Shown here piece by piece: positions 4,370 to 44,552 of a stretch of 51,811 bases of DNA (position 1 is its first letter; each line of letters opens with the position of its first letter). The DNA is taken from sequence record LT961732, one strand, 5' to 3'. The position numbers were made by a program, and so were the translations under genes. The DNA comes from Escherichia phage SECphi27. The notes beneath the pieces are model-generated. The model was not told the origin of the DNA and made no database searches. It saw only the letters and a program-made list of their open reading frames with translations.

Positions 4370-4765
4370 TCATGTGATATTGAATTTACGGCGCAGTGCT
4401 TCAAGATCTTGTCTATTAGCTTTTGCCTGGAACAATTCATCATCGCCCATCTCCCCTATTCTAGCCATATCCCTGATCCAGTCGTTGCGCATACCATCCA
4501 GGCTATACAATTCGAATCCGAAAGGCCGCTTTGACGATCCTTTGGACCAGTATTTACCGCAGACCCCATCTATATAACCAGCCGTCATCATTCTTGCGCA
4601 AAATTCCTTAGATGCAAGGCTGGCGAACATTCGCGGCGTAAGTCCGGCGGCCCGTGCGAGCCGCTCACATTCTCTATGCTGATAGATAAATTTGGCTATG
4701 TGCTGCCTGTTAAACCAGTCGTATGACTCACACCATTTATACAGATCAAGCAAAAACATAATCAT
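4370..4765 (-). CDS. hypothetical protein (cotranscribed with NTPase)
   Basis: 131 aa; ATGA start/stop overlap with upstream 526-aa gene. Confidence 0.55.
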   Translation of the reverse strand: MIMFLLDLYKWCESYDWFNRQHIAKFIYQHRECERLARAAGLTPRMFASLASKEFCARMMTAGYIDGVCGKYWSKGSSKRPFGFELYSLDGMRNDWIRDMARIGEMGDDELFQAKANRQDLEALRRKFNIT

Positions 4766-6342
4766 CCCAGCAGTATTGGATTGACAAAAATAACACCATT
4801 AATCACGCAAACATAATTTCTTTCTTCCAGCATTGGCAGCAAGTGCCCCTCTATCCTCTTCATTACGCCAGCCTGACCAACGAAAGGTTTTACCTTTCTC
4901 GCTGATTCGTACAGGGCGCGAATATTCAGGATCCCTTTGTTAGCCTTGCCGTGCCTCGTGATCAATTCAATCAATTTACCCATTTCAGCATCATCACCAG
5001 CATAACCAGAAGCATTGGCGGCGCTAATGTATGTTTTGCTCAATTCCTGAAACATGATCAACGCCTCTTGCATTGTTTCCACGTCGATCTCTTTCGACTT
5101 CTGCGGGTATCCGGCAGGATTAAACCAGTTACGGATAACATGCAGGACGGAAGCAAGCCTGATCACCTGTTTATCCATTTTACCCAGCGCACCGCGTAAC
5201 ATTGTATGAGAATACTTTCCGCCGTCTGCAAGATGCGGTTCCATATCCTGGCGAGCAATGTTGAGCACTCGCATAGCTGAACGGCTTATTTTCAGCGATA
5301 TATTTGATTCGCTCATGATGTTATGCACCAATTGATAATATTGGGCTTTCAATTCAGAATCCACCGCCTCATAGGTAGAATCACCATTTTCATCAATGAA
5401 TGAGCGACGGCCTAAGAATGATTCCTCGCGGACCAACAAAAAACGCTCACTAACACCGATGCCTCGCGATCCAGCGTCCATGATTCCGCTTATCGTTTCA
5501 TCCTGGGCTATAACGCTCATGCATCCAAGCGCGCGAAAACTCATATTATTGTCAGCATTAGCACGGGCAATTGATACGTGACCATTATCCCACGCCTTAA
5601 GCACTAACTCACTGTTAGTCTTCCTTTCGCTATTTGCATAGGTCAAGCCTAACAGACTGTTAATACTTGTTGCTTCATCAGATATTACGGCAAAGTTACC
5701 TTGCTTGTTGTTGATTTTCGCCAAGCCTTCTGGAGTTGTATCTGAAACAGGAAAAGTTATATCACACATTTTTTCCAGCTTTTCCTCCAGATCCTCTTTT
5801 TCCTGGTATAGAGATTCCATATCAGCGCCGGATCTTTCGCTTTTCATCTCCTTTGCAAGACCTGCCAGCTTTGCCTGTATTTTCTTTCTTTCCTTGCGGC
5901 GTTGCTCGTTGATCTTCTCAACTTCCGCAATCATCGGAGCAATAGCCATGCTGTTGATCGCAGATTTACCAGTTGACGGCGGCTGGCTTGTAACGACGTA
6001 AAGCGCAGTCGGCTGATCGGTTCCGTGATAGTCAACCGTAAAGCGTCCAAGCATAGCGGCAGAAATGCAGCCGATAAAGTGCATGTAAGCCGATGATTCA
6101 GGGAATTGAACGGATCGCGCAATGCTGCGTGATAACTTGCCGACAACATCAATATCATTACCAAGAGAAATAACGGGGTAGCGATCGTGACCGCTATTCA
6201 CATCCTTTACGTCGCCCCAAAAGCTGGACGACTGGCGATAGCCGTTAGCCTGAATTGATACGCGAACTGGTGAAAGGTTCTGGCTTTCAGCCATAGCGAT
6301 TATTTGCTGTGGAGTTAATTTGTTTGTTTCTAATGAAAACAT
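4762..6342 (-). CDS. P-loop NTPase of unknown function
   Basis: 526 aa; Walker A-like PPSTGKS and Walker B-like FAVISDE separated by a charged coiled-coil insert; RBS AAGGAGAAG. Confidence 0.65.
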   Translation of the reverse strand: MFSLETNKLTPQQIIAMAESQNLSPVRVSIQANGYRQSSSFWGDVKDVNSGHDRYPVISLGNDIDVVGKLSRSIARSVQFPESSAYMHFIGCISAAMLGRFTVDYHGTDQPTALYVVTSQPPSTGKSAINSMAIAPMIAEVEKINEQRRKERKKIQAKLAGLAKEMKSERSGADMESLYQEKEDLEEKLEKMCDITFPVSDTTPEGLAKINNKQGNFAVISDEATSINSLLGLTYANSERKTNSELVLKAWDNGHVSIARANADNNMSFRALGCMSVIAQDETISGIMDAGSRGIGVSERFLLVREESFLGRRSFIDENGDSTYEAVDSELKAQYYQLVHNIMSESNISLKISRSAMRVLNIARQDMEPHLADGGKYSHTMLRGALGKMDKQVIRLASVLHVIRNWFNPAGYPQKSKEIDVETMQEALIMFQELSKTYISAANASGYAGDDAEMGKLIELITRHGKANKGILNIRALYESARKVKPFVGQAGVMKRIEGHLLPMLEERNYVCVINGVIFVNPILLG

Positions 6343-6416: not shown

Positions 6417-6632
6417 GATCCGCTCTATTGCAACCAGAAGTCGATCAGGCTGGCGGTCGCTGTAGCATTCTCCTGTAATCCCATCTTTAAACGTAAAGTA
6501 AAGCGCCTTATGATATGAAAAACCAATCAGCCAACCTACCGCCGTTTTTTTGATGGGCCTGACTATATCGCCAGGCTTGAAAGTCTTTGTGGTAGAATGC
6601 GTTACTTTGTAACGGTTTTCACTGTTTATCAC
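6411..6632 (-). CDS. hypothetical protein
   Basis: 73-aa ORF in early minus-strand block. Confidence 0.5.
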   Translation of the reverse strand: MINSENRYKVTHSTTKTFKPGDIVRPIKKTAVGWLIGFSYHKALYFTFKDGITGECYSDRQPDRLLVAIERIK

Positions 6633-7015
6633 AGATATTTACCCTCAAAAAGATAACAGCCGCCAGCAGAGAATCCGACCTCTTCACGGTACAGGTTCCA
6701 GCGGTCGCCGCACTCATCAAAAACATAACCCGCAACGCTTCCAAGCGGTCGCCCTTTCTCGATCTGGTATCGCTTGCCCTGCTTAAAGTGCTTTTTGCAC
6801 GGCATGTTATGATCTACAAACGTGCAAAGAACGGTTTTTGTGTTAATGGCGCGGTAATCATCTCGGTTTGCTGGAAGCCAGCGGCTACCCTTAACAAGCG
6901 TCTTAACCTGGAACTCTTCCACCTCGATCACATCATCACTTCCTGCAATCTTCTGATAAACCGTTTTAAAACGGCCTTTCATCAATACGTTGGTTTCATT
7001 ACAGATAACATTCAT
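6629..7015 (-). CDS. hypothetical protein
   Basis: 128-aa ORF; 4-nt overlap with downstream gene. Confidence 0.55.
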   Translation of the reverse strand: MNVICNETNVLMKGRFKTVYQKIAGSDDVIEVEEFQVKTLVKGSRWLPANRDDYRAINTKTVLCTFVDHNMPCKKHFKQGKRYQIEKGRPLGSVAGYVFDECGDRWNLYREEVGFSAGGCYLFEGKYL

Positions 7016-7069
7016 GATCAGATCTCCTTTGTTTGTTCGATGTGATTATGCCAGGTTTTTACACCTGGC

Positions 7070-7090
7070 TTTTAACAAAAAGTGCTATTT
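7070..7090 (-). promoter_or_regulatory. Conserved intergenic motif, forward class
   Basis: Minus-strand read: aatagcactttttgttaaaa, hairpin gccaggt/acctggc, cataat, catcgaacaaac, RBS, ATG at 7015. Confidence 0.6.
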
Positions 7091-7801
7091 TGAGTTTGAC
7101 TCAAAGACGGCGCGAGCAAATCCGCGCGGAGTGAGGGAGCGGATCATCTTTGTGCGCGATGACTTACCGCCAGTTTTGGCCCAGCCTGGATTATCTTTGT
7201 CTTCCTCTTTCGGCAGGATTAAAGCGCGCGGAGGAATAACAAAGCCGTTGCCAGTCCAGAGGCACGTTTTCTTAAAATAGCGATCCCGTGCCGGAATAAT
7301 ATCAGGGAAGTCGGGATGTTTATCATCTTCCGGCAGATAGCCAGCGTAATCGCACGGATGGAACGTATAATCAGGCTTTCGCCATAACGTTGACAACTTG
7401 CCAACCGGATTTTCGATCATGTAAGGAACACCGAAATAATCAGCTATATCAGCCGCGATTCTGCAAGTGTCGGCGGCCTCATCCTGGAACGATGGATTCT
7501 CAAGGCGTTTTTTGGCCCAATGGCGAGATCCGCTATTTGCAAGGTCGGTGCACGGCGGAAATGCCATAATAAAGTCAGGAATGACCCATTCCTCCCAGCG
7601 CGCGCGGTGGTAAAATCTTTCATCAATCCAGACGTTAACGTATTCGATATTCTCATGCTGTATGCGCACTGACTGGTAATCACCGTGATCGCCACCGTCA
7701 GCATTAAAGCAAATGCACTTATATCCATTATCAGCCCAATCTTTAACGGCTTTACCAGATCCATCAAATAGGGAGAATATTAAACCTTTATACATCGTCA
7801 T
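7085..7801 (-). CDS. minimal C5-cytosine DNA methyltransferase-like protein
   Basis: About 238 aa; motif I FSLFDGSG, motif IV PPCTDLANSGS, motif VI ENPVG in canonical order; start moved to ATG after GAGG RBS. Confidence 0.55.
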   Translation of the reverse strand: MTMYKGLIFSLFDGSGKAVKDWADNGYKCICFNADGGDHGDYQSVRIQHENIEYVNVWIDERFYHRARWEEWVIPDFIMAFPPCTDLANSGSRHWAKKRLENPSFQDEAADTCRIAADIADYFGVPYMIENPVGKLSTLWRKPDYTFHPCDYAGYLPEDDKHPDFPDIIPARDRYFKKTCLWTGNGFVIPPRALILPKEEDKDNPGWAKTGGKSSRTKMIRSLTPRGFARAVFESNSK

Positions 7802-7805
7802 TACC

Positions 7806-8030
7806 TCAAAACGGAAAACAGCGCGGACAACTAGGATCGAAATCGCATCCACAATCATTAACAATCATAGTGGGATCTGCAAATATTGCGCTTGATTCAA
7901 GATCCATATCCATATCACCTAAAGCCTCATCAAGAGTCTTAATTTTATATGCCACTTCAAGCGCCGCCTCTTTATTTAGTCCGGCATCTTCTGCCATTTG
8001 AAGGCGCTCAAAAAAACCGTCCTGACTCAT
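7806..8030 (-). CDS. small acidic protein with C-terminal Cys cluster
   Basis: 74 aa; about 16 Asp/Glu against 5 Lys/Arg; C-terminus CGCDFDPSCPRC; immediately upstream of the MTase-like gene. Confidence 0.55.
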   Translation of the reverse strand: MSQDGFFERLQMAEDAGLNKEAALEVAYKIKTLDEALGDMDMDLESSAIFADPTMIVNDCGCDFDPSCPRCFPF

Positions 8031-8143
8031 CGCATAACTCCCTTAATAACAGCCAAGATAATAGCCAGGCCAGCAGCAGTAACCAAAAAACCAACCGCGC
8101 CAATAATCGAATAAAAAAAGAAATCAATAGCTTTATCTATCAT
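8027..8143 (-). CDS. hydrophobic micropeptide (about 38 aa)
   Basis: Not in ORF track (under 60 aa); RBS GAGGTGG; single TMD; ATGA overlap with downstream acidic gene. Confidence 0.4.
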   Translation of the reverse strand: MIDKAIDFFFYSIIGAVGFLVTAAGLAIILAVIKGVMR

Positions 8144-8162
8144 TTTCCACCTCATTTAAAAG

Positions 8163-8179
8163 GCGGCAAAACGCCGCCA
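8163..8179 (-). other. GC hairpin (ggcggc-gttt-tgccgcc) between early genes
   Basis: Perfect 6-7 bp stem; short T-run on minus strand; possible attenuator or processing site. Confidence 0.4.
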
Positions 8180-8185
8180 GATTAA

Positions 8186-8413
8186 TTAAAGAGCGCGCCA
8201 ACTTTGAATATAGAAAGCGTTTTCTTCCAGTAATTCTTTTACCTGATCTTTATTGTATTTGCGCACCTTGCCGCCTGGATGGATACCAATAAGATAGCCG
8301 CCTTTGCCCTCGGTGATAGTGATTTGGCTAATTCCGCAGGACTTATCAAGTTTTACAGCCACGCGGTGATGAGCGTCAATAGTTGCCATAATGTTTAAAA
8401 CTTTTGCTTTCAT
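8186..8413 (-). CDS. hypothetical protein
   Basis: 75-aa ORF; GAGGAT RBS upstream. Confidence 0.5.
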   Translation of the reverse strand: MKAKVLNIMATIDAHHRVAVKLDKSCGISQITITEGKGGYLIGIHPGGKVRKYNKDQVKELLEENAFYIQSWRAL

Positions 8414-8568
8414 TTAAATATCCTCAATTGAAATATGAATGACGTGGCGCTCTTTTTCCGTCGCCGCCGTAATGGTCATTTGCAACCGCCACCATCCAGG
8501 CATTTTTGAATATAAAAAGCCTCATTTCTTATTTTTCAGCTTAAATTTATGAAATGGAATACCCGCCA

Positions 8569-8850
8569 TTATGCGATCCCAGTTACGTTAAAACTTACAG
8601 CCTTTGTTGCGCTAAATACATAAGCATCAACAGCGCCGCCAAATACACGAATTTTACCCTGGCCGTACTGCGCATTCATATTTCGCCAAACCGTTCTATT
8701 AGAACAGAATGCGCTACCAGTCTTAATAAGCGTATCCATCTCTTTTCTTAGACCGCGATAGTCCAGCCAGAATCTAAAGGCGCGCTGTTTAATTCGCGCC
8801 GCCTTGATTTTTTCTCTTGCGCTATTGAAATCATTCTTTTCGTATGCCAT
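8569..8850 (-). CDS. hypothetical protein
   Basis: 93-aa basic ORF. Confidence 0.5.
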   Translation of the reverse strand: MAYEKNDFNSAREKIKAARIKQRAFRFWLDYRGLRKEMDTLIKTGSAFCSNRTVWRNMNAQYGQGKIRVFGGAVDAYVFSATKAVSFNVTGIA

Positions 8851-9047
8851 TAAATGATCTCCATGTATGTTTCAAAGCCATTTAACTTAAACAGGCCGTT
8901 TTCACATTTGCGCACGTTCCAAGTTAGCCCTGAGTGGTACGCCTCCATATCATCAAGGTCAATGGTGATTTCAGCGCCTTTCTTAAACAAACCTTTTTCG
9001 TGAGACTTGTCGCGCTTAACAACTTTAACATCAACCTGATTTTCCAT
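8850..9047 (-). CDS. hypothetical protein
   Basis: 65-aa ORF; start/stop overlap with next gene; motif unit upstream. Confidence 0.5.
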   Translation of the reverse strand: MENQVDVKVVKRDKSHEKGLFKKGAEITIDLDDMEAYHSGLTWNVRKCENGLFKLNGFETYMEII

Positions 9048-44099: not shown

Positions 44100-44552
44100 A
44101 TGCACGTTATTACCGGTGAGATCCGAAAAGAGCCAAAAGTAAAGCAAATGCCTAACGGCAGTACGCTATATGTTGTTGAGCTTTCCGAACGATATAAAGA
44201 TCGTGAAGGAAATTGGCAGTATACAAACTATGTGTTTTTCTTTAACGCGAAAACAGACGGCCTGAATGGTTGGTATGCTGAGGCATTCCAGGTAGGCAAG
44301 GTTATTTCTGTTTCCTGCGATACCTTGCGAGTTGAAACGCGAGAATACAACGGAAAGATTTACAGCACCGTGCAGCCTGGCGGATTTGCAAACTTGCTAT
44401 TTAGCCAGAGAGGTGAAAGCCAGCAACAATATCAGCAGCGAACGCAAGGAGGATGGGGGCAACCACAACAGCAACAGCAACAAAATACTCAACAGCAGCC
44501 GCAGCAAAGCAATCAGCCTCCGATTGACTTTGACGACGATATACCATTCTGA
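44100..44552 (+). CDS. ssb: single-stranded DNA-binding protein
   Basis: 150 aa; Gln/Gly-rich linker; acidic C-terminal tail DFDDDIPF. Confidence 0.85.
   Translation: MHVITGEIRKEPKVKQMPNGSTLYVVELSERYKDREGNWQYTNYVFFFNAKTDGLNGWYAEAFQVGKVISVSCDTLRVETREYNGKIYSTVQPGGFANLLFSQRGESQQQYQQRTQGGWGQPQQQQQQNTQQQPQQSNQPPIDFDDDIPF

What the first reader, a model, noticed from the sequence alone, without database searches (positions are those of the whole stretch)
7085..8143. Candidate anti-restriction module: hydrophobic micropeptide, acidic Cys-cluster protein, minimal m5C-methyltransferase-like enzyme
Three translationally coupled minus-strand genes. A roughly 38-aa single-TMD micropeptide (8027-8143) overlaps by ATGA a 74-aa strongly acidic protein (7806-8030; about 16 D/E against 5 K/R; C-terminal CGCDFDPSCPRC). 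That is followed by a roughly 238-aa protein with m5C-MTase motifs I (FSLFDGSG), IV (PPCTDLANSGS) and VI (ENPVG) but almost no target-recognition domain. Small acidic proteins of this kind are typical DNA mimics that inhibit restriction enzymes, and pairing one with an orphan-like cytosine methyltransferase would be a two-layer anti-restriction strategy. The truncated enzyme could also modify something other than DNA.
Basis: inference. Interest (0 to 1): 0.6.

Follow-up and report, generated by a model that had tools for sequence, protein, structure and literature searches.

The report
Known phage Dcm methylase plus SSB-tailed protein
The three genes are real, but they are not a dedicated anti-restriction module: the enzyme is an already studied T1-type phage cytosine methyltransferase, and the acidic protein belongs to an independent phage family whose conserved feature is a tail tip like that of single-stranded-DNA-binding protein.

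Summary
The window is a Warwickvirus-like T1-type coliphage: 99% identical to phage atuna and 97.6% to BASEL phage FritzSarasin/Bas04 over window 6500-9000.

**Observation.** All three minus-strand genes exist as described.

**Methyltransferase.** It most likely starts at 7795 (236 aa). It is 90% identical to the KarlJaspers (Bas06) Dcm. A preprint shows that the Dcm of the related strain K42 makes 5mC and triggers retron Ec86. The fold is DNMT3-like with a small target-recognition region. This part is already known.

**Not a unit.**
- The methyltransferase occurs in 1497 phage records, the acidic protein in 448.
- T1, Bas01 and Bas03 have the acidic family and no such methyltransferase.
- The micropeptide occurs only in close relatives.

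**No broad protection.** BASEL phages that carry the acidic protein and the methyltransferase are still restricted by EcoRI, EcoRV and type III systems. Bas04's "resistance" to EcoKI, EcoCFT_I and EcoRV matches zero recognition sites.

**Acidic protein.** No support for a DNA mimic. It has a short helical N-terminus and a tail with no predicted structure. The tail has four invariant cysteines and ends in a family-wide hydrophobic-Pro-Phe/Trp tip (mostly IPF), like the SSB tip DDDIPF. Docking into SSB-tip pockets is my inference, untested.

The parts
7085..7795 (-). Dcm-like C5-cytosine DNA methyltransferase, 236 aa. An in-frame ATG at 7801 would give 238 aa. Many GenBank records use an upstream TTG giving 257-259 aa, which is probably an over-extension.
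   Evidence: phrog_757 'DNA methyltransferase', E 1.6e-84. No Pfam or NCBIfam hit for this protein; 14 of 26 relatives hit PF00145 below threshold. AlphaFold pLDDT 88. Top Foldseek PDB hits are DNMT3A/3B. 90% identical to Bas06 Dcm. C82, E128, K175 and K176 of K42 Dcm correspond in numbering.
7804..7807 (-). Shine-Dalgarno GAGG for the methyltransferase. It overlaps the last two bases of the acidic gene's TGA stop codon.
   Evidence: Sequence. The K42 escape mutants mut#2 and mut#3 carry a change 9 bp upstream of the dcm start, which is the first G after the stop codon within GAGG when mapped on the Bas06 sequence.
7806..8030 (-). 74-aa acidic protein: an N-terminal helical module (residues about 4-38) followed by an acidic tail with no predicted structure.
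   Evidence: pI 4.05. phrog_9323, E 2.2e-37, function unknown. AlphaFold pLDDT 62 with helices at 4-15, 20-27 and 33-38 and none after. Only 42 clusters at 50% identity among 1.8 billion proteins.
7809..7853 (-). C-terminal 15 residues, CGCDFDPSCPRCFPF: four invariant cysteines (CxC-x5-CxxC) followed by the terminal Phe-Pro-Phe tip.
   Evidence: C60, C62, C68, C71, P73 and F74 are invariant or nearly so, with synonymous codon variation at each. 23 of 30 short family representatives end in hydrophobic-Pro-Phe/Trp, in three of them followed by one more residue.
8027..8143 (-). 38-aa hydrophobic micropeptide with one predicted membrane span. It is a lineage-specific insertion.
   Evidence: GRAVY 1.63. 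Ribosome-binding site GAGGTGG at 8147-8153. Homologs in only 8 of 55 related loci. Bas06 has a 37-aa version at 58% identity. No PHROG, Pfam or NCBIfam hit.
8162..8178 (-). Terminator-like GC-rich hairpin followed by a T run, just upstream of the micropeptide gene.
   Evidence: 7 pairs, 6 of them G-C, loop of 3, then TTTT.
8186..8413 (-). 75-aa gene, the conserved upstream neighbour of the acidic gene across the Drexlerviridae. Function unknown.
   Evidence: phrog_4344, E 6.3e-27. A homolog lies upstream of the acidic gene in 54 of 55 loci, directly adjacent in nearly all.
44100..44552 (+). The phage's own SSB, ending ...PPIDFDDDIPF. Listed as the comparator for the tail tip, not as part of the locus.
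   Evidence: The canonical SSB-Ct motif DDDIPF is described in PMC5872125 and PMC3632105.

Best explanation
The stretch is part of the leftward early operon of a T1-type phage. It holds three tightly packed but functionally separable genes.

1. **Methyltransferase.** The 236-aa enzyme belongs to a compact, phage-borne Dcm-like C5-cytosine methyltransferase family. It has a DNMT3-like catalytic core and a target-recognition region of about 65 residues. It most likely methylates phage DNA, probably at CCWGG, so that this site need not be purged from a genome that otherwise relies on restriction-site avoidance. The same activity is what retron Ec86/Eco1 detects as an infection signal.

2. **Acidic protein.** The 74-aa protein is not tied to the methyltransferase. 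Its family spans the Drexlerviridae and has a small helical module, an acidic flexible tail and an invariant extreme C-terminal hydrophobic-Pro-Phe/Trp tip, here preceded by a probable Zn(Cys)4 knuckle. I infer that the tip is a docking peptide of the SSB C-terminal (DDDIPF) type. It would engage a pocket that normally binds SSB tails, in a host or phage DNA-metabolism protein, either as a competitor or as an adaptor.

3. **Micropeptide.** It is a lineage-specific membrane peptide inserted between two conserved genes.

Shown: gene reality, family membership, fold, distribution, and conservation of the tip. From the literature: 5mC formation and retron triggering. Inferred: CCWGG specificity in this phage, zinc binding, and SSB-pocket docking.
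For: **Methyltransferase**
- Family and fold.
- Orthology to the KarlJaspers (Bas06) enzyme, with the same residue numbering as K42 Dcm.
- 5mC formation and the Ec86 trigger.
- CCWGG and GATC are exempt from strong palindrome avoidance.

**Independence of the genes**
- The methyltransferase is in 1497 phage records; the acidic protein is in 448.
- T1 has the acidic gene and no C5 methyltransferase.
- In eleven Tunavirus-type loci the methyltransferase lies 2.2-3.2 kb upstream instead of downstream.
- In ESCO41 two genes separate the acidic gene and the methyltransferase.
- Bas01 and Bas03 have Cys-tailed members and no methyltransferase next to them; a tblastn of the whole Bas03 genome finds none.
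- The micropeptide is in 8 of 55 loci.

**Tail tip**
- P73 is invariant and the last residue aromatic across otherwise unalignable tails: DDYIPW, FDDGIPF, CxxCIPF, KDEIPF, CFPF.
- Purifying selection acts at the protein level.
- No secondary structure is predicted for residues 39-74.
- Among real genes of this window, only the phage SSB (...DFDDDIPF) and this protein end in hydrophobic-Pro-Phe/Trp.
- In the SSB tip, the terminal Pro and Phe fill a hydrophobic pocket and the acidic residues and the carboxylate meet basic residues (PMC3632105).
Against: - No binding data exist, and no complex could be modelled.
- In this window's protein the residues just before the tip are C-P-R-C, not D-D-D. 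The nearest acidic run (DFD) is 9-11 residues from the end.
- Webervirus, Enterobacter-phage and Bas03 members carry one extra residue after the Phe (IPFW, VPFL, LPFI). That would displace the terminal carboxylate that SSB-tip pockets read.
- In all 40 IMG/VR loci with a Cys4 tail the methyltransferase lies 10-244 nt downstream. Some functional link therefore cannot be excluded.
- The CCWGG specificity of the phage enzyme was assumed by the K42 authors by analogy with host Dcm and supported only by msDNA mutants.
- The methyltransferase-less relatives T1 and Bas03 show only mild CCWGG depletion (0.83 and 0.89). The k-mer argument is therefore weak, and host Dcm could explain it.
Confidence: 0.55

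Rival explanations
1. One reading: a two-layer anti-restriction module. The acidic protein is a DNA mimic that blocks restriction enzymes (like Ocr or ArdA), the methyltransferase protects by methylation, and the micropeptide is an accessory.
For: - Net charge about -11 in 74 aa, pI 4.05.
- Early-gene position and tight coupling to a methyltransferase.
- Bas04, which has the same genes, plates at 0.09-1 on EcoPI despite 28 sites, whereas Bas06 and Bas09 are hit 300- to 3000-fold.
- Inhibition of type I systems cannot be assessed in Bas04, Bas05 and Bas06, which have 0-1 sites.
Against: - No match to any anti-restriction family or solved structure.
- The model has low confidence and its acidic half has no predicted structure. 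As far as I know, Ocr and ArdA are compact folds.
- Conservation sits on Cys, Pro and Phe and on the helical core, not on an acidic pattern.
- Carriers are restricted by EcoRI, EcoRV, EcoCFT_II and EcoPI in line with their site counts.
- Bas01 (EcoKI efficiency of plating 1.9e-4, 3 sites) and Bas03 (EcoCFT_I 0.0025, 5 sites) carry divergent family members.
- Bas04's resistance to EcoKI, EcoCFT_I and EcoRV coincides with zero sites.
- The genes are not a conserved unit.
Confidence: 0.08
2. The Cys4-tailed form of the acidic protein is a dedicated partner of the methyltransferase, for example a zinc-knuckle subunit that tunes specificity, stability or timing of an enzyme with a minimal target-recognition region.
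For: - In all 40 IMG/VR loci with a Cys4 tail the methyltransferase is the next or next-but-one gene (gap 10-23 nt in 27 loci, 111-244 nt in 13).
- None of the 13 loci with an intact Cys-less tail has it immediately downstream.
- The stop codon and the Shine-Dalgarno sequence overlap, which suggests coupled translation.
Against: - Bas01 and Bas03 have Cys-tailed members (CCDGLGCEECLPW, CCDGLGCDECLPFI) with no methyltransferase next to them; Bas03 has none in its whole genome.
- The methyltransferase occurs in about 1000 more phage records than the acidic protein, including rV5-like, Dhillonvirus, Jersey-like and Vibrio phages.
- K42 Dcm expressed alone from a plasmid methylated DNA and triggered Ec86.
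- The correlation rests on few independent lineages.
Confidence: 0.12
3. The acidic protein acts through its conserved helical module (AGLNxE...ALGDMDMDxES) on some other target, for example as an inhibitor of a non-restriction defence system or a host takeover factor. The C-terminal tip would then be a stability, degradation or localisation signal rather than an SSB-type docking peptide.
For: - The helical module is the most widely shared part. It also occurs in longer proteins with quite different C-termini, such as a CPxC zinc ribbon or a GGEDDxTPPLEV tail.
- The neighbourhood is rich in small early genes that interact with host immunity: the Dcm retron trigger, and a Gp54-type trigger at 8850-9047.
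Against: - The tip is retained in 23 of 30 short representatives across very divergent tails, which argues for a specific binding role.
- K42, whose close relative Bas06 carries this gene, is still sensitive to Ec86. It therefore does not block that system.
Confidence: 0.2

Closest known systems
Phage K42 / KarlJaspers (Bas06) Dcm, the trigger of retron Ec86 (Retron-Eco1); bioRxiv 10.1101/2023.08.16.553469
   Same: - A 711-bp gene with the same start context.
- 90% amino-acid identity to the Bas06 enzyme.
- The same catalytic and substrate residues: C82, E128, K175, K176.
- The same three-gene layout (bas06_0055 to 0057).
   Different: - A different genus (Warwickvirus-like rather than Hanrivervirus).
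- Nothing has been measured for this phage.
- The target motif is not rigorously determined even for K42.
Canonical bacterial and eukaryotic C5-cytosine DNA methyltransferases (Pfam PF00145; M.HhaI, M.HaeIII, E. coli Dcm, the DNMT3A/3B catalytic domain)
   Same: - Class I methyltransferase fold.
- Motif I (FDGSG), motif IV (PPC, with the catalytic Cys) and motif VI (ENP).
- Best structural matches are DNMT3A/3B.
   Different: - Only 236 aa.
- Does not reach the Pfam threshold.
- A target-recognition region of about 65 residues.
- C-terminal motifs diverged (GGKSxRTKxIRSLTPRGFAxAV).
- TM-score to DNMT3 only about 0.45-0.5.
C-terminal tip of bacterial and phage SSB (SSB-Ct, DDDIPF)
   Same: - At the extreme C-terminus, after a flexible acidic segment.
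- Invariant Pro followed by a terminal aromatic residue. Most family members end in exactly IPF, and T1-type members end in DDYIPW.
- The phage's own SSB ends in DFDDDIPF.
   Different: - No OB fold and no DNA-binding domain.
- In this window the tip is FPF, preceded by a Cys4 cluster and Arg rather than Asp-Asp-Asp.
- Some members have an extra residue after the Phe.
- Binding is untested.
DNA-mimic anti-restriction proteins (T7 Ocr, ArdA, T4 Arn)
   Same: Small, strongly acidic, and encoded among phage early genes.
   Different: - No sequence or profile similarity.
- No confident compact fold.
- A conserved Cys4 cluster and a Pro-Phe tip.
- Carriers are restricted by the restriction systems tested in BASEL.

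Membership tests
C5-cytosine DNA methyltransferase | Class I (Rossmann-like) SAM-methyltransferase fold | tested here: met
   AlphaFold pLDDT 88, pTM 0.88. All 35 top Foldseek PDB hits are DNMT3A/3B catalytic domains, E 1e-6 to 4e-5, probability 1.00.
C5-cytosine DNA methyltransferase | Motif I (FxGxG, SAM binding), motif IV (PC, catalytic cysteine) and motif VI (ENV-type glutamate) | tested here: met
   FSLFDGSG, FPPCTDLA and ENPVG are present. D13, G14, S15, G16, P83, C84, E130, N131 and P132 are invariant in 26 homologs. Motifs I and IV align to DNMT3B.
C5-cytosine DNA methyltransferase | Scores above the Pfam PF00145 gathering threshold | tested here: not met
   No hit for this protein even at E<=1. 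14 of 26 relatives hit PF00145 only weakly (best E 0.0014). No NCBIfam hit.
C5-cytosine DNA methyltransferase | A sizeable target-recognition domain between motifs VIII and IX | tested here: inconclusive
   Only about 65 residues (about 145-210) lie there, with conserved H162, P163, F165, D173, Y175, K177, K178 and W182. This is small but comparable in spirit to DNMT3.
C5-cytosine DNA methyltransferase | Forms 5-methylcytosine in DNA | not testable with these tools
   LC-MS showed more 5mC on msDNA when K42 Dcm was expressed, and the effect was lost in the C82A/E128A/K175A/K176A mutant. This window's enzyme is 90% identical to that of Bas06, the sequenced relative of K42.
Retron Ec86/Eco1 trigger (phage Dcm) | Orthology to the K42 / KarlJaspers dcm gene that is disrupted in Ec86 escape mutants | tested here: met
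   90% identity over all 236 residues to Bas06, with the same gene length and synteny. Triggering by this particular allele is untested.
DNA-mimic anti-restriction protein (Ocr/ArdA type) | Sequence or profile homology to a known anti-restriction family | tested here: not met
   No Pfam or NCBIfam hit. PHROG hits are all 'unknown function'. A PDB profile search gave only a chance hit at E 0.74.
DNA-mimic anti-restriction protein (Ocr/ArdA type) | Compact fold that displays carboxylates in a DNA-like pattern | tested here: inconclusive
   AlphaFold pLDDT 62. There are three short helices, and no structure is predicted for residues 39-74, where most of the acidic residues lie. A low-confidence model cannot exclude a fold.
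DNA-mimic anti-restriction protein (Ocr/ArdA type) | Carriers escape restriction | tested here: not met
   Published BASEL efficiencies of plating: Bas04 EcoRI about 0.01 and EcoCFT_II about 3e-4; Bas06 EcoPI about 1e-3; Bas09 EcoRI 2e-6 or lower. Bas01 EcoKI 1.9e-4. For the closest relatives type I systems are untestable, because they have 0-1 sites.
SSB C-terminal tip-like docking peptide | Hydrophobic-Pro-aromatic at the extreme C-terminus, conserved | tested here: met
   FPF here. 23 of 30 short family representatives end in [ILVFM]-P-[FW], in three of them followed by one more residue. The rest are truncated or near misses (EPF, ISF). P73 is invariant.
SSB C-terminal tip-like docking peptide | Acidic residues immediately before the tip (D-D-D) | tested here: inconclusive
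   Met in T1-type (DDDDYIPW), ESCO41 (FDDGIPF) and KDEIPF/LDEIPF members. In this window's protein the preceding residues are C-P-R-C, with DFD further upstream.
SSB C-terminal tip-like docking peptide | Binds the hydrophobic and basic pocket of SSB partner proteins | not testable with these tools
   No complex prediction or binding assay was available. The pocket is described in PMC3632105.

The most novel reading that the evidence does not exclude
The acidic protein family is a phage-encoded stand-alone SSB-tail mimic. A small helical body carries a flexible acidic tail whose IPF-type tip, in many members stiffened by a four-cysteine zinc knuckle, plugs the SSB-Ct pockets of host DNA-repair or replication-restart enzymes or of defence sensors. 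T1-type phages would thereby be able to disconnect host SSB from its partner network, or to shield their own SSB. I found no such stand-alone SSB-tip decoy in the searchable literature.
Probability: 0.25. Interest if true: 0.7.

Novelty: new member of a known kind. Interest (0 to 1): 0.38.

Why it matters
The methyltransferase part matters mainly as annotation. This phage carries the known Dcm-type enzyme that retron Eco1 senses, so it should be sensitive to that retron. Many GenBank records also mis-start the gene or mislabel its small neighbour.

The useful new lead is the acidic protein. It is a family conserved across the Drexlerviridae and of unknown function, and its one universally conserved feature copies the tip of SSB. 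If it does compete for SSB-tip pockets, it would be a simple, testable way for a phage to rewire host DNA repair, replication or SSB-sensing immunity, and a natural peptide scaffold against a recognised antibacterial target.

The analysis also shows that the restriction resistance reported for Bas04 and Bas05 is largely explained by missing recognition sites rather than by these genes.

Tried and rejected
- **Family scans.** Pfam and NCBIfam gave nothing for any of the three proteins.
- **PDB by sequence.** Only marginal DNMT3B or M.HaeIII hits for the methyltransferase and a chance hit for the acidic protein.
- **Model of the acidic protein.** Too low in confidence (pLDDT 62) to justify a fold search.
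- **BASEL restriction resistance as support for anti-restriction.** Rejected. Bas04's resistance to EcoKI, EcoCFT_I and EcoRV coincides with zero recognition sites. Bas05 and Bas06 also have 0-2 sites for EcoKI, EcoCFT_I, EcoRI and EcoRV. Where many sites exist, the phages are restricted.
- **Cys4 tail as marker of a methyltransferase partnership.** Weakened by Bas01 and Bas03, which have Cys-tailed members without a methyltransferase next to them, and by the much wider spread of the methyltransferase.
- **Cys codons conserved because of an overlapping methyltransferase reading frame or an RNA element.** Rejected. The upstream extension of the methyltransferase ORF is not conserved between lineages, and the Cys, Pro and Phe codons vary synonymously.
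- **Comparative CCWGG avoidance, phages with versus without the methyltransferase.** Not discriminating: 1.0 against 0.83-0.89.
- **Literature search for phage SSB-tail mimics.** Found none.
- **Details of the 2,262-bp K42 deletion.** Which four genes were lost could not be retrieved.
Full report
**What the window is.** The region 6500-9000 is 99.1% identical to Escherichia phage atuna. It is 97.6% identical to BASEL phage FritzSarasin (Bas04; Drexlerviridae, Tempevirinae, Warwickvirus). The finding lies in the leftward early operon, upstream of a DUF3987 helicase-like gene at 4762-6342.

**Checking the observation.** All three minus-strand ORFs are present.
- The micropeptide (8027-8143) has 38 aa and GRAVY 1.63. 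The ribosome-binding site GAGGTGG precedes it. Its stop codon overlaps the start of the acidic gene, giving ATGA.
- The acidic protein (7806-8030) has 74 aa, pI 4.05, and 16 D/E against 5 K/R.
- The methyltransferase carries FSLFDGSG, PPCTDLANSGS and ENPVG.

The true methyltransferase start is most likely ATG 7795, giving 236 aa and a 711-nt gene.
- GAGG lies 8 nt upstream of 7795 and only 2 nt upstream of the ATG at 7801.
- The orthologue in KarlJaspers is annotated as 711 bp beginning MYKGL.
- The retron-escape mutation in the related strain K42 lies 9 bp upstream of that start. Mapped on the Bas06 sequence it falls in the GAGG.
- The 257-259-aa versions in many GenBank records extend upstream over the acidic gene in another frame. 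That extension is not conserved between lineages.

**The methyltransferase.**
- Neither Pfam nor NCBIfam recognises it. It matches phrog_757 'DNA methyltransferase' at E 1.6e-84.
- It has more than 2000 homolog clusters of about 225-260 aa, none with a precomputed Pfam domain.
- Fourteen of 26 aligned relatives touch PF00145 below threshold.
- In the alignment, the motif I, IV and VI residues are invariant, as is a C-terminal block GGKSxRTKxIRSLTPRGFAxAV.
- The AlphaFold model is confident (pLDDT 88, pTM 0.88).
- Its best PDB matches are all DNMT3A/3B catalytic domains (E about 1e-6, TM about 0.45-0.5). Sequence-profile hits to DNMT3B and M.HaeIII are marginal.
- The region between the WRKP stretch and the C-terminal motifs is about 65 residues. 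'Minimal target-recognition domain' is a fair description.

**The enzyme is already in the literature.** A preprint (10.1101/2023.08.16.553469) isolated mutants of phage K42 that escape retron Ec86. K42 is a KarlJaspers strain whose genome is 95.4% identical to Bas06.
- All four escape mutants hit a 711-bp dcm gene.
- Expressing Dcm alone was toxic only in cells that carried Ec86.
- LC-MS showed raised 5mC on msDNA, and the effect was lost in a C82A/E128A/K175A/K176A mutant.
- 34 of 35 Ec86-sensitive phages encode such a Dcm.

The window's enzyme is 90% identical to the Bas06 enzyme and has those residues at the same numbers. BASEL annotates the gene as 'Dcm-like C5 cytosine methyltransferase'. 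The CCWGG specificity was assumed by analogy with host Dcm. It is supported by msDNA motif mutants but was not mapped directly.

**Is it a module?** No.
- By tblastn the methyltransferase is in 1497 phage records across many groups: Drexlerviridae, Dhillonvirus, rV5-like, Jersey-like, Vibrio phages and others. The acidic protein is in 448 records.
- Among 55 IMG/VR loci with an acidic-protein homolog, the 75-aa gene at 8186-8413 lies upstream of the acidic gene in 54. That pair is the conserved core.
- The micropeptide is present in only 8 close relatives. Elsewhere the 75-aa and acidic genes abut, as in T1.
- T1 has the acidic gene and no C5 methyltransferase.
- Eleven Tunavirus-type loci have the methyltransferase 2.2-3.2 kb upstream instead.
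- In ESCO41 two genes lie between the acidic gene and the methyltransferase.
- The T1 backbone runs 75-aa gene, acidic gene, then a homolog of window 6629-7015. Here, therefore, the methyltransferase looks like an insertion into a conserved backbone.

**Does it protect against restriction?** The BASEL raw data answer this for near-identical gene sets.

| Phage | Genes carried | System (sites) | Efficiency of plating |
|---|---|---|---|
| Bas04 | all three, 96-100% aa identity | EcoKI, EcoCFT_I, EcoRV (0 each) | about 1 |
| Bas04 | | EcoRI (4 palindromic sites) | 0.004-0.012 |
| Bas04 | | EcoCFT_II (52) | 1.6e-4 to 1e-3 |
| Bas04 | | EcoPI (28) | 0.09-1 |
| Bas06 | same three-gene layout | EcoRV | 0.02-0.2 |
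| Bas06 | | EcoCFT_II | 0.002-0.03 |
| Bas06 | | EcoPI | 3e-4 to 3e-3 |
| Bas09 | Cys-tailed acidic protein and adjacent methyltransferase | EcoRI | 2e-6 or lower |
| Bas09 | | EcoRV | about 1e-5 |

The genome's main defence is site avoidance.
- 19 of 50 six-base palindromes have observed/expected below 0.3, against 0.66% of non-palindromic hexamers.
- EcoRV is 0/14.4, HindIII 0/16.3 and CCSGG 3/19.9.
- CCWGG (137/135) and GATC (307/311) are untouched.

This fits protection by the Dcm-like enzyme and by a Dam-like methyltransferase, which is annotated in Bas04. The support is only weak. The methyltransferase-less relatives T1 and Bas03 show just mild CCWGG depletion (0.83 and 0.89), and host Dcm could account for it.

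**The acidic protein.** It has no Pfam, NCBIfam or PDB relative. Its PHROG families are of unknown function. An exhaustive profile search of 1.8 billion representatives finds only 42 clusters.
- The model has low confidence: three short helices in residues 4-38 and no structure after residue 38.
- The alignments show two conserved elements.
- The first is a helical core, AGLNxE..VAY..TLDxALGDMDMDxES.
- The second is the extreme C-terminus. Tails are otherwise unalignable, for example DDINEDVDDYIPW in T1, KFDDGIPF in ESCO41, CGCRGSAYCNECIPF, CHACKDEIPF, and CGCDFDPSCPRCFPF here.
- Even so, 23 of 30 short representatives end in hydrophobic-Pro-Phe/Trp, most often IPF. In three of them one more residue follows. 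The exceptions are truncated or near misses.
- Most members also carry a CxC-x5-6-CxxC cluster just before the tip.
- Selection acts on the protein. Among 24 distinct gene sequences, each Cys codon occurs as TGT and TGC, P73 as CCG and CCA, and F74 as TTT and TTC.

**Interpretation of the tip.** Bacterial SSB ends in the amphipathic DDDIPF. Its Pro and Phe fill a hydrophobic pocket, and its acidic residues and terminal carboxylate meet basic residues, on more than a dozen partner proteins (PMC5872125, PMC3632105).
- The phage's own SSB (44100-44552) ends in PPIDFDDDIPF.
- Among real genes of the window, only SSB and the acidic protein end in hydrophobic-Pro-Phe/Trp.
- I therefore infer that the family is a helical body carrying an SSB-tip-like docking peptide.

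This is inference only, and there are counter-indications.
- The C-P-R-C context here replaces D-D-D.
- Webervirus, Enterobacter-phage and Bas03 members carry an extra residue after the Phe.
- I found no published phage SSB-tail mimic.

**Rivals.**
- A DNA mimic is disfavoured by the lack of a confident fold, by the conservation pattern and by the restriction phenotypes. Those phenotypes include type I restriction of Bas01 (EcoKI 1.9e-4) and Bas03 (EcoCFT_I 0.0025), which carry divergent Cys-tailed members.
- A methyltransferase-partner role is suggested by the perfect association of Cys4 tails with a downstream methyltransferase in 40 IMG/VR loci.
- That role is weakened by three things: the Cys-tailed members of Bas01 and Bas03, the far wider distribution of the methyltransferase, and the activity of K42 Dcm alone.

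**Verdict.**
The enzyme is a real cytosine DNA methyltransferase with a plausible self-protective role. It is already known, chiefly as the retron Ec86/Eco1 trigger.
- The 'module' and 'DNA mimic' readings are not supported.
- The residual interest lies in the acidic family's SSB-like tip and Cys4 knuckle, which are cheap to test.

Noticed in passing
window 8850-9047 (-): The 65-aa gene three genes upstream of the micropeptide gene matches Pfam PF25180 'Phage antiviral trigger protein Gp54' (E 1.7e-38, full length). This early operon therefore holds at least two proteins of kinds reported to trigger bacterial immunity.
   Followed up: partly
window 8162-8178 (-): A strong terminator-like hairpin (GGCGGCGTTTTGCCGCC followed by TTTT) sits between the conserved 75-aa gene and the micropeptide gene. 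In phages without the micropeptide the two flanking genes abut, so hairpin and micropeptide may have arrived together as one insertion.
   Followed up: partly
whole window; compared with L005, L061, L064: Extreme avoidance of six-base palindromes: 19 of 50 are depleted more than 3-fold, and many have zero copies against 5-20 expected. CCSGG is 3/19.9. Bas03 has no Dam annotated, avoids GATC (0.34) and avoids few other palindromes.
   Followed up: yes
GenBank records MG065643, MG065671-MG065680 (Campylobacter phages), OR786094 (Streptococcus phage MBBL140), Pseudomonas phage Motto, OM735690 (Stenotrophomonas phage BUCT705): Records named for unrelated hosts carry near-identical T1-type genes, up to 97% amino-acid identity for the acidic protein. 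They look like T1-type contaminants or mislabelled isolates.
   Followed up: no
window 7796-7864 (-) and homologous positions in GenBank records: Many deposited annotations start the methyltransferase CDS about 60 nt too far upstream (774 bp, overlapping the acidic gene). Some label the small acidic gene itself 'putative cytosine DNA methylase', for example XY3, JLBYU16 and Motto.
   Followed up: partly
proteins P0267, P0269, P0271, P0274, P0275, P0278-P0283: Longer relatives (133-309 aa) embed the same helical module (AGLNxE...ALGDMDxDxE) but end differently. Two have a CPxC...CPxC zinc ribbon, and several have a conserved GGEDDxTPPLEVxMAGGxxxW tail. The module is therefore reused in other contexts.
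   Followed up: no
window 8186-8413 (-): A 75-aa protein of unknown function (phrog_4344) lies upstream of the acidic gene in 54 of 55 related loci, directly adjacent in nearly all. It ends in a conserved ...N-S-x-[YF]-I-x-S-W motif in the four sequences I read. It is the real conserved partner of the acidic gene.
   Followed up: partly
window 7050-7069 (-): A 7-bp inverted repeat, GCCAGGT...ACCTGGC, lies just after the methyltransferase stop codon. It contains two CCWGG sites and has no T run. Its function is unknown.
   Followed up: no
L065 8191-8364 (Bas01) and L061 39283-39462 (Bas03): Braunvirinae phages without an adjacent C5 methyltransferase encode 57-59-aa acidic proteins ending CCDGLGCEECLPW or CCDGLGCDECLPFI. 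Their tails match those of other family members (for example P0258), while their N-terminal halves are much more divergent.
   Followed up: partly
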